A program made the position numbers and the translations under genes. A stretch of DNA of 64,000 nt, from contig OZ024765.1 in NCBI GenBank assembly GCA_964016885.1, forward strand, positions 8,122,001 through 8,186,000. Reading direction: 5' to 3'. Below, piece after piece: positions 7,697 to 8,200 of this stretch (positions are counted from its first letter, which is position 1; every line of letters starts with the position of its first letter). The stretch is from Eledone cirrhosa. Lineage: Eukaryota. The notes under the pieces are model-generated. The model saw only the letters and a list, made by a program, of their open reading frames with translations. It had not been told where the DNA came from and did not search any database.

Positions 7697-8200
7697 TAGC
7701 TTTCACCGTATTTTTGACTAAAGAAATTTTAGCCTGATAATGGGGTTTAGAACCCTCAGATAAATGGAAAAAAGATGAGTATTGACATACATGGGAGTCA
7801 AACCCACATCTTTGGTTATCCAGACCACTGTGCTACCATTACACCAACACATCACCCATCTCCTTCCATTCAAATTAGAAGCTACATTCTTAGCAAGTAT
7901 AAAAGACAAGTAAGTATGTTTTGAAACAGTGAGCAAGTTCGTCATTTATATTTGCTAAGAATGTAGCTTCTAATTTGAATGGAAGGAGATGGGTGATGTG
8001 TTGGTGTAATGGTAGCACAGTGGTCTGGATAACCAAAGATGTGGGTTTGACTCCCATGTACGTCAATACTCATCTTTTTCCATTTATCTGAGGGTTCTAA
8101 ACCCCATTATCAGGCTAAAATTTCTTTAGTCAAAAATACGGTGAAAGCTATATATTTTCTAATTTTAAACTTGCTCACTGTTTCAAAACATACTTACTTA
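7697..8200. mobile_element. Inverted dimer of a ~290-bp element carrying an internal tRNA-like gene
   Basis: Arms 7697-7896 and 7952-8151 are reverse complements. 8168-8199 is the reverse complement of 7908-7939, implying terminal redundancy. Copies at 29955-30100 and 49826-50096. Confidence 0.85.
7995..8065 (+). tRNA. tRNA-like cloverleaf, anticodon GGA, short variable loop (element-borne, function unknown)
   Basis: Acceptor GATGTGT/GTACGTC, D stem GTGT/GCAC, anticodon stem TGGT/ACCA with loop CTGGATA, T stem GTGGG/CCCAT, TTTTT at 8075-8079. Mirror copy at 7783-7853 (-). Confidence 0.6.

What the first reader, a model, noticed from the sequence alone, without database searches (positions are those of the whole stretch)
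7697..8200. Mobile element carrying an internal tRNA cloverleaf with a non-canonical GGA anticodon
Seen: a 71-nt cloverleaf (7995-8065; copies 7783-7853 and 49921-49991) with A and B boxes, a 7-bp acceptor stem, anticodon loop CTGGATA, a 4-nt variable loop and TTTTT ~10 nt downstream. It lies in the middle of a ~290-bp repeat with a ~32-nt terminal direct repeat that inserts in (TA)n and forms an inverted dimer. Established: SINEs carry the tRNA part at their 5' end and usually lose the acceptor stem and terminator; serine tRNAs have long variable arms, and G34 tRNA-Ser is normally avoided in eukaryotes; this D arm (TGGTGTAATGGTAGCAC) resembles tRNA-Gln. Inference: this is not an ordinary SINE but possibly a Penelope-mobilised element carrying a complete Pol III unit. 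The opposite strand has a decayed hammerhead-like CTGATAA-GGGGTT/AACCCT hairpin at 7734-7757.
Basis: partly seen in the sequence, partly recalled or inferred. Interest (0 to 1): 0.75.

Follow-up and report, generated by a model that had tools for sequence, protein, structure and literature searches.

The report
Penelope-copied repeat with folded tRNA promoter
A 260-base, gene-less repeat found in thousands of copies in this animal genome carries a tRNA-shaped segment that lacks the features of a working serine tRNA; its insertions are built like those of Penelope-type jumping genes, whose enzyme likely copies it, and the points where copies break off suggest that the tRNA segment likely folds in the copied RNA and likely serves as the element's own promoter.

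Summary
The cloverleaf is real (ARAGORN; Rfam 47 bits). It lies in a ~260-bp non-coding unit with thousands of genomic copies in five subfamilies. Insertions have Penelope-like (PLE) anatomy: head-to-tail units, 5' truncation, (TA)n targets (58 of 63 free tail ends) and back-to-back arms (76 of 138 sites), of which 69 carry the ~40-bp tail on one arm only. It is not a decoding tRNA-Ser: short variable arm, U37 in 92 of 96 copies, U33 lost in 44 of 96. Stems and A/B boxes are nearly invariant between subfamilies, without covariation. New: copy 5' ends pile up at the T-arm/acceptor base (71 of 114, 7-fold) and at -5..+4 of the tRNA (17 of 84), as expected if a folded, Pol III-started RNA was the template. 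No hammerhead core on either strand. Against: a conserved T5 terminator follows the tRNA, most tRNA-bearing copies run past the putative start, no partner PLE and no RNA data were found. Closest known: schistosome Sm-alpha (tRNA-Gln-derived, Pol III, tandem, with hammerhead) and Helenus/Cassandra. The scan noted a similar element in another genome (e1-9063403). New variant of a known kind.

The parts
7696..7939 (-). Tail-less arm of a two-armed insertion; begins inside the tail of the preceding unit, holds leader, cloverleaf and body, ends in (TA)n
7783..7853 (-). Cloverleaf of the inverted arm
   Evidence: ARAGORN; Rfam 44.8 bits
7941..8199 (+). Tail-bearing arm, one full permuted monomer, ends in (TA)n
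7960..7980 (+). AT-rich block upstream of the tRNA with a 12-base stretch unchanged in all five subfamilies; possible upstream Pol III element (inference)
7977..7994 (+). Purine-rich arm predicted to pair with 8068-8085 and extend the acceptor stem by 18-19 bp; G7991 is the candidate start site (-4)
   Evidence: folding z -3.5 sense, -1.4 antisense; 5' ends
7995..8065 (+). tRNA-like cloverleaf with A and B boxes; loop 8025-8031; not a tRNA-Ser
8049..8065 (+). Hotspot of copy 5' ends (T loop to acceptor 3' strand, peak 8055-8056); inferred reverse-transcriptase stop
8068..8085 (+). Pyrimidine-rich trailer with T5 (8075-8079), a Pol III terminator-like run kept in all five subfamilies
8113..8131 (+). 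Short body hairpin; common variants keep pairing on the sense strand
8140..8179 (+). Body stem-loop whose loop holds the tail-less 3' end; one pair reads T-A 103, C-G 34, T-G 11, C-A 5, G-A 1 of 154
8164..8199 (+). PLE-type tail (optional ~40-bp 3' extension)
   Evidence: PMC8557442 section 6; PMC11167929
29936..30104 (-). Typical truncated copy: starts in the acceptor 3' strand, ends with the tail, (TA)n on both sides
49825..50085 (-). Tail-less arm related to the 7.7-7.9 kb arm (shared private junction); cloverleaf 49921-49991
50318..50372 (+). Tail fragment of the same family

Best explanation
This is a gene-less ~260-bp repeat with Penelope-type insertion anatomy, likely pasted in by the reverse transcriptase/GIY-YIG endonuclease of a Penelope-like element, and its internal tRNA-like segment is likely a Pol III promoter whose RNA likely keeps the tRNA fold rather than a decoding tRNA. 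Shown: tandem permuted units, (TA)n targets, two alternative 3' ends a tail apart, back-to-back arms, two hotspots of 5' ends, conservation of boxes and stems, free drift of the anticodon loop. Inferred: the enzyme nicks both strands at (TA)n and primes at the two sites around the body stem-loop; it usually stalls on meeting the folded acceptor/T-arm, which leaves most copies without the tRNA; when it reads through it often reaches an RNA end at about -4, a pyrimidine-purine site 11 bases before the A box. Inferred with less support: only transcripts that read past the T5 run, or longer read-through RNAs of tandem arrays, can be templates, and tandem arrays keep the promoter in the way the LTR does for Cassandra and Helenus.
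For: Tandem arrays of 260-bp period (L013 has four cloverleafs). 1270 exact hits for the tRNA core, 6213 for a 3' 18-mer, 3418 for a tail pattern, 0 for reversed controls. Of 72 tail ends 9 run into the next unit and 58 of the other 63 meet (TA)n, against 14-29% background. 76 of 138 fetched sites are two-armed, 69 of these with the tail on one arm only, matching PMC8557442 (section 6) and the two initiation sites and both-strand priming in PMC11167929. RT plus C-terminal GIY-YIG ORFs of 636-1096 codons exist in the genome. 5' ends: 71 of 114 arms at risk end at linear positions 55-71, 0.050/nt against 0.007/nt on either side (7.3-fold); non-inverted arms alone 25 of 48, 4.4-fold, p 4e-7; AT/TA density is no higher there. 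17 of 84 tRNA-bearing arms end at -5..+4 (3.3-fold, p 1.6e-4 before correction for a post hoc window), 12 of them at -1 to -5 and four exactly at G-4. Between five subfamily majorities 3 of 64 gap-free columns vary in tRNA positions 8-71 against 34 of 124 outside (p 9e-5); anticodon stem plus variable loop 0 of 14 (p 0.02), anticodon loop 2 of 7. Sense strand folds better than shuffles, antisense does not.
Against: T5 directly after the tRNA is kept in all five subfamilies and should stop most Pol III transcripts before the tail. 67 of 84 tRNA-bearing arms run upstream past -5, so many templates began elsewhere or were jumped between. No covariation in cloverleaf or extension (164 of 500 shuffles as high); subfamily C breaks two acceptor pairs. 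The main hotspot holds three 4-bp palindromes, none in the two flanking bins, which favour joining of inverted arms; arms of one insertion are not independent, a few tandem arms were counted twice, and one junction is shared between two loci. One of the 17 ends near +1 (L344) is an internal deletion. No autonomous PLE shares the tail among 40 GIY-YIG loci or 71 tail-anchored segments. Subfamily majorities rest on 7-20 copies each and are related by descent.
Confidence: 0.55

Rival explanations
1. PLE-mobilised, but the cloverleaf is a processing signal in place of the hammerhead: long Pol II read-through RNA of tandem arrays is cut by RNase P at each tRNA 5' end, as with MALAT1 mascRNA, giving unit-length templates.
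For: Leader-trailer pairing extends the acceptor stem with a bulge at the junction, as in MALAT1 (PMC8457004, passages); it would explain why T5 is kept (it pairs) and why stems are conserved beyond the promoter boxes; no hammerhead is present; 5' ends cluster near +1.
Against: 12 of the 17 ends near +1 include 1-5 bases upstream of G1 and only 5 start at or after it; long continuous extensions hinder RNase P according to the same paper; subfamilies B and C break some extension pairs.
Confidence: 0.17
2. PLE-mobilised, transcribed only by read-through from neighbouring Pol II units; the cloverleaf is a captured SINE or tRNA head that is kept for RNA stability or merely rides along.
For: 67 of 84 tRNA-bearing arms extend beyond the putative start; T5 would block Pol III templates; the cloverleaf costs the element most full-length copies; the 49.9-kb copy carries a junction from another insertion, compatible with a read-through template.
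Against: A passenger should drift like the rest; tRNA positions 8-71 vary about six times less than the rest of the unit; the peak of 5' ends at -5..+4 has no structural cause once the 3' strand is copied (inference).
Confidence: 0.18
3. Ordinary LINE-mobilised SINE, or an LTR-type miniature (TRIM such as Helenus) whose LTR carries the tRNA.
For: tRNA head with A/B boxes; Helenus LTRs carry tRNA-like sequences in molluscs (PMC10886601, passages and section 3.5).
Against: No fixed 5' end at the tRNA, no A-rich or simple-repeat tail, two 3' ends a tail apart on opposite arms, pervasive 5' truncation, no LTR-internal-LTR layout in any fetched locus.
Confidence: 0.05
4. The element spreads a functional tRNA-Ser(GGA) or another decoding tRNA.
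For: Complete cloverleaf with typical tertiary-core bases; ARAGORN calls it.
Against: No long variable arm; U37 in 92 of 96, U33 missing in 44 of 96, three different loops by subfamily; G-A mismatch atop the anticodon stem and three G-U acceptor pairs.
Confidence: 0.02

Closest known systems
Schistosoma Sm-alpha / Sj-alpha (PMC6765202 passages; PMC2770079 passages; the original 1998 paper was not held)
   Same: Short tandem non-coding unit, internal Pol III tRNA-type promoter, promoter kept only in tandem; Sm-alpha is reported as tRNA-Gln-derived with many copies called as tRNAs; the D arm here matches host tRNA-Gln.
   Different: Sm-alpha has an active hammerhead, this has none; the passages read do not link Sm-alpha to PLE enzymes, whereas PLE tail and two-arm marks are plain here. 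Homology not tested.
Non-autonomous PLEs and animal non-LTR retrozymes (MRC1/Chlamys in PMC8557442; PMC7229834; bioRxiv 10.64898/2026.07.22.740005)
   Same: Size, head-to-tail copies, no ORF, PLE-type insertion structure, microsatellite target.
   Different: No hammerhead, no detected similarity to an autonomous pLTR, and an internal tRNA; none of the passages read describes a tRNA-like segment in these elements.
Cassandra, Helenus, Ajax (TRIMp3; PMC10886601 passages, section 3.5)
   Same: Small-RNA-derived Pol III promoter inside a repeated terminal unit; anticodon uninformative; terminator inside the repeat in Cassandra.
   Different: Those are LTR elements with PBS, PPT and 4-5 bp target duplications; this has PLE anatomy.
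MALAT1 mascRNA (PMC8457004 passages)
   Same: Purine-rich leader pairs with trailer to extend the acceptor stem of a tRNA-like fold.
   Different: Single-copy lncRNA processing signal cut by RNase P; here the stem is longer (18-19 bp) and the 5'-end map fits a start upstream of G1 better than a cut at G1.
tRNA-derived SINEs (general knowledge; octopus OK/OR SINEs recalled)
   Same: tRNA-derived A/B boxes, many young copies, subfamilies.
   Different: tRNA not at a fixed 5' end, terminator directly behind it, no LINE-type 3' tail.

Membership tests
Non-autonomous Penelope-like element | Partial-tandem (pseudo-LTR) units with 5' truncation | tested here: met
Non-autonomous Penelope-like element | Inverted 5'-truncated arm next to the main copy | tested here: met
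   76 of 138 sites
Non-autonomous Penelope-like element | Optional 30-40 bp tail at one end | tested here: met
   69 of 76 two-armed sites have it on one arm only
Non-autonomous Penelope-like element | Microsatellite/AT-rich target | tested here: met
   58 of 63 free tail ends
Non-autonomous Penelope-like element | 3' similarity to an autonomous partner | tested here: inconclusive
   none in 40 GIY-YIG loci out of 10,597 candidates or 71 tail segments; sample small
Non-autonomous Penelope-like element | Mobilisation by PLE protein | not testable with these tools
   needs in vitro TPRT
Non-LTR retrozyme / Sm-alpha type | Type I hammerhead in each unit | tested here: not met
   no Rfam hammerhead at E<=5; no core on either strand in five tandem loci except two antisense matches with a C3-A8 mismatch in mutated copies of L013 and one stemless match in L036, while PLE ORF loci give core-like matches; a stricter descriptor missed those controls
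Non-LTR retrozyme / Sm-alpha type | Internal Pol III promoter in a tandem unit (Sm-alpha) | tested here: inconclusive
   boxes invariant, 5'-end peak at -5..+4; activity untested
tRNA-derived SINE (SINE2) | tRNA head at a fixed 5' end | tested here: not met
   67 of 84 arms extend upstream
tRNA-derived SINE (SINE2) | LINE-related 3' end with A-rich or short-repeat tail and no internal terminator | tested here: not met
TRIMp3 (Helenus/Cassandra) | Two LTRs with PBS/PPT between and 4-5 bp TSD | tested here: not met
   locus maps show only tandem and inverted pieces of one unit; PBS not searched explicitly
Functional tRNA-Ser | Long variable arm | tested here: not met
   4-nt loop
Functional tRNA-Ser | U33 and purine 37, conserved anticodon | tested here: not met
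Functional tRNA-Ser | Processing, CCA addition, aminoacylation | not testable with these tools
   no RNA holder listed

The most novel reading that the evidence does not exclude
A SINE-equivalent class for Penelope-like elements: a ribozyme-free hitch-hiker in which a folded tRNA both drives Pol III transcription and, through its leader-trailer stem, sets where the RNA ends or is cut, so replacing the hammerhead; the genome's thousands of truncation points record the in vivo fold (and perhaps T-loop modification) of the RNA template.
Probability: 0.3. Interest if true: 0.75.

Novelty: new variant of a known kind. Interest (0 to 1): 0.55.

Why it matters
LINEs have SINEs and LTR elements have Cassandra/Helenus; a Pol III tRNA-type rider on Penelope-like enzymes was not found in my searches, the nearest case being hammerhead-bearing Sm-alpha. 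PLE mechanism is poorly known, and this young family gives thousands of natural products that fit the two-start, both-strand priming seen in vitro, plus a map of where the enzyme stops on a structured template. It shows that a hammerhead is dispensable for such a rider and offers a 260-nt substrate for in vitro tests. Practically, over a thousand copies will be mis-annotated as tRNA-Ser genes.

Tried and rejected
No RNA holder listed for the unit; three contig runs of unknown kind were laid: they show the unit, its tandem joints and B/C-type variants also in a second coded organism at low depth, but cannot show expression or starts. Partner search: blastn of three subfamilies against 40 GIY-YIG loci gave nothing below E 0.1. 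Hammerhead: Rfam and core search negative; my first descriptor failed on positive controls and is not used. Covariation of the cloverleaf not above shuffles. RNase Z-type ends at position 74 are few (3 of 151 at Sprinzl 74). Source tRNA not settled: tRNA-Gln scored best among 11 host types, but the sample was seeded with a Gln motif, and T-arm resembles host Arg/Leu tRNAs; phage collection gave only short weak matches. Rfam microRNA hits only reflect the inverted repeat and are below cut-off. The bacterial promoter scan is irrelevant to an animal. Two papers (Cassandra 2008, Sm-alpha 1998) were not held. Repbase/Dfam could not be searched, so the family may already be deposited there; supplements of PMC8557442 and PMC10886601 were not read and bioRxiv supplements are closed.

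Full report
Observation. The three cloverleafs are there and the two near 7.8-8.1 kb score 47.1 and 44.8 bits against Rfam tRNA. The host is an animal with a 3.0-Gb assembly; from its repeats I take it to be an octopus, which is recalled and not tested. The stretch 7696-8199 is one insertion with two back-to-back arms: a minus arm that stops before the last ~45 bases of the unit and a plus arm that includes them; both end in (TA)n. The copy at 49.8-50.1 kb shares a junction and a private substitution with the minus arm; each pattern has exactly 2 hits in the genome, both in this window, so it is a local relative and not an independent insertion. A fourth copy at 29936-30104 lacks nearly all of the tRNA.

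The family. The unit is a circularly permuted monomer of 260 bp (257-290 by subfamily) in head-to-tail arrays of up to four cloverleafs. Exact patterns give 1270 hits for the tRNA core, 6213 for an 18-mer 3' of it and 3418 for the tail, with 0 for reversed controls; these are lower bounds. Five subfamilies differ by 2-16% and their copies by 1.8-5.5% on average from their majority (52 full units).

How it inserts. Of 138 sites fetched by listed place (all on contig 1, picked by 3', tail or tRNA patterns), 76 have two arms, 59 one and 3 none recognised; in 69 of the 76 exactly one arm has the tail. Of 72 tail ends, 9 continue into the next unit and 58 of the remaining 63 meet (TA)n, against 14% and 29% in two backgrounds. 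Partial tandems, inverted truncated arms, an optional 30-40 bp tail and (TA)n bias are the described PLE anatomy (PMC8557442, outline, passages and section 6 read). PMC11167929 (parts 1-2 of 4 read) shows a purified PLE protein cutting and extending both strands and starting at two internal sites in a stem-loop, the tail being the stretch between them. Here the tail-less end lies in the loop of a body stem whose middle pair reads T-A 103, C-G 34, T-G 11, C-A 5, G-A 1 of 154; this is one or two evolutionary events, not 34. PLE ORFs with RT and C-terminal GIY-YIG, some 900-1100 codons long, are in the genome. I found no autonomous element sharing the tail, from a small sample. I put PLE mobilisation at about 0.9.

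It is not a serine tRNA. The variable loop has 4 bases. Among 96 copies the loop is CTGGATA 41, CCGGATA 21, CGCGATA 16, other 18; 44 lack U33 and 92 have U at 37. The D arm equals host tRNA-Gln but for one base, while acceptor and T stems differ; the host sample was seeded with a Gln motif and held 11 types, so the origin is not settled.

The fold is kept. Between subfamily majorities 3 of 64 gap-free columns vary in tRNA positions 8-71 and 34 of 124 in body, tail and leader (p 9e-5); the anticodon stem and variable loop, which are not promoter boxes, vary at 0 of 14 (p 0.02) while the loop varies at 2 of 7. Copies were anchored on tRNA motifs, but the sample anchored 3' of the tRNA showed the same subfamilies. 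This is conservation without covariation: 37 aligned copies give a score reached by 164 of 500 shuffles, and subfamily C loses two acceptor pairs. A purine-rich leader is predicted to pair with the trailer, T5 included, extending the acceptor by 18-19 bp; the sense strand folds at z -3.5 and the antisense at z -1.4. Its common variants are G-U/A-U exchanges, but two pairs are broken in B or C.

Where copies break off. In 151 arms anchored 3' of the tRNA, 5' ends fall at 0.007 per base in the trailer, 0.050 at linear positions 55-71 (71 of 114 at risk; peak Sprinzl 63-64, minor group of 9 at 57-60) and 0.007 in the rest of the tRNA; 7.3-fold, and 4.4-fold (25 of 48, p 4e-7) for arms scored as non-inverted. 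AT/TA density does not explain it, but three 4-bp palindromes there probably add to the inverted class. Arms of one insertion are not independent, a few tandem arms were counted twice and the inverted/simple label is automatic. The simplest reading is that the template was folded as a tRNA and stalled the enzyme; an RNA end made by cleavage there cannot be excluded. In 93 arms anchored on the tRNA, 17 of 84 end at -5..+4 (3.3-fold; p 1.6e-4, window chosen after seeing the data; one is an internal deletion); 12 start at -1 to -5, four exactly at G-4 behind a pyrimidine. That fits a Pol III start better than an RNase P cut at G1. But 67 of 84 go further upstream, so longer RNAs or template jumps are needed.

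No hammerhead. Rfam finds none at E up to 5 in 7300-8700.

Mechanism. Best: PLE-mobilised rider with an internal Pol III promoter, promoter retained through tandem copies (0.55). The main difficulty is the T5 run ten bases after the tRNA, kept in all subfamilies; it implies that most Pol III products are ~90-base dead ends and only read-through RNA is copied. One untested possibility is that the leader arm, absent from a transcript begun at -4 but present in the next unit, makes termination stronger on the second pass and yields a terminally redundant RNA, in the manner described for Cassandra (PMC10886601, passages). Rivals: RNase P signal as in MALAT1 (PMC8457004, passages; 0.17), Pol II read-through with the fold as stabiliser or passenger (0.18), LINE-type SINE or TRIM (0.05), decoding tRNA (0.02).

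Comparison and novelty. It works most like schistosome Sm-alpha, reported as a tandem, Pol III-transcribed, tRNA-Gln-derived unit with a hammerhead (PMC6765202 and PMC2770079, passages), but fails the hammerhead test and so is no retrozyme (PMC7229834, passages; bioRxiv 10.64898/2026.07.22.740005, parts 1-3 of 5). It meets the structural tests for a non-autonomous PLE. The scan's own notes hold a similar element in another genome (e1-9063403) and hammerhead-bearing PLE riders in this genome; I did not check them. Verdict: real, new variant of a known kind, interest 0.55.

Noticed in passing
L083, L085-L093 (e.g. L086:1185-2860 on the reversed locus): A second, unrelated ~1.7-kb AT-rich repeat with fixed ends carries a near-perfect internal tRNA (Rfam 53-71 bits; anticodon mostly GGC, also GAC, AGC, GGT, GTC) about 310 bp inside one end; looks like a DNA-transposon-type element.
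   Followed up: partly
window 8414-8582, 11454-11716, 36549-36763, 43915-44142, 50082-50238, 59763-59888: Another short gene-less family with a fixed 3' end in (TA)n and perfect 5' inversions whose junctions cluster at one site; probably a second PLE rider; no hammerhead core found in the four copies tested.
   Followed up: partly
window 49825-50372 versus 7696-8199: The two loci share a unique inversion junction and a private substitution but have different 3' ends; local duplication with later rearrangement, gene conversion or re-copying of a two-armed insertion.
   Followed up: partly
among L147-L152, L193-L212 (host tRNA clusters): Five tRNA-Gln-derived genes with a CTA (amber) anticodon and a mismatched anticodon stem, three identical; probably pseudogenes.
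   Followed up: no
L061, L115 (3' of GIY-YIG ORF); L108, L100: PLE 3' regions carry hammerhead-core-like strings, in one family with the U3-A8 variant.
   Followed up: no
L097, L099, L100: Long uninterrupted PLE frames (938, 1096, 636 codons) suggest recently active autonomous families.
   Followed up: partly
run X5 laid on window 7945-8199: Contigs of a second coded organism show variants typical of subfamilies B and C at low depth; the family may predate a species split, or this is carry-over.
   Followed up: no
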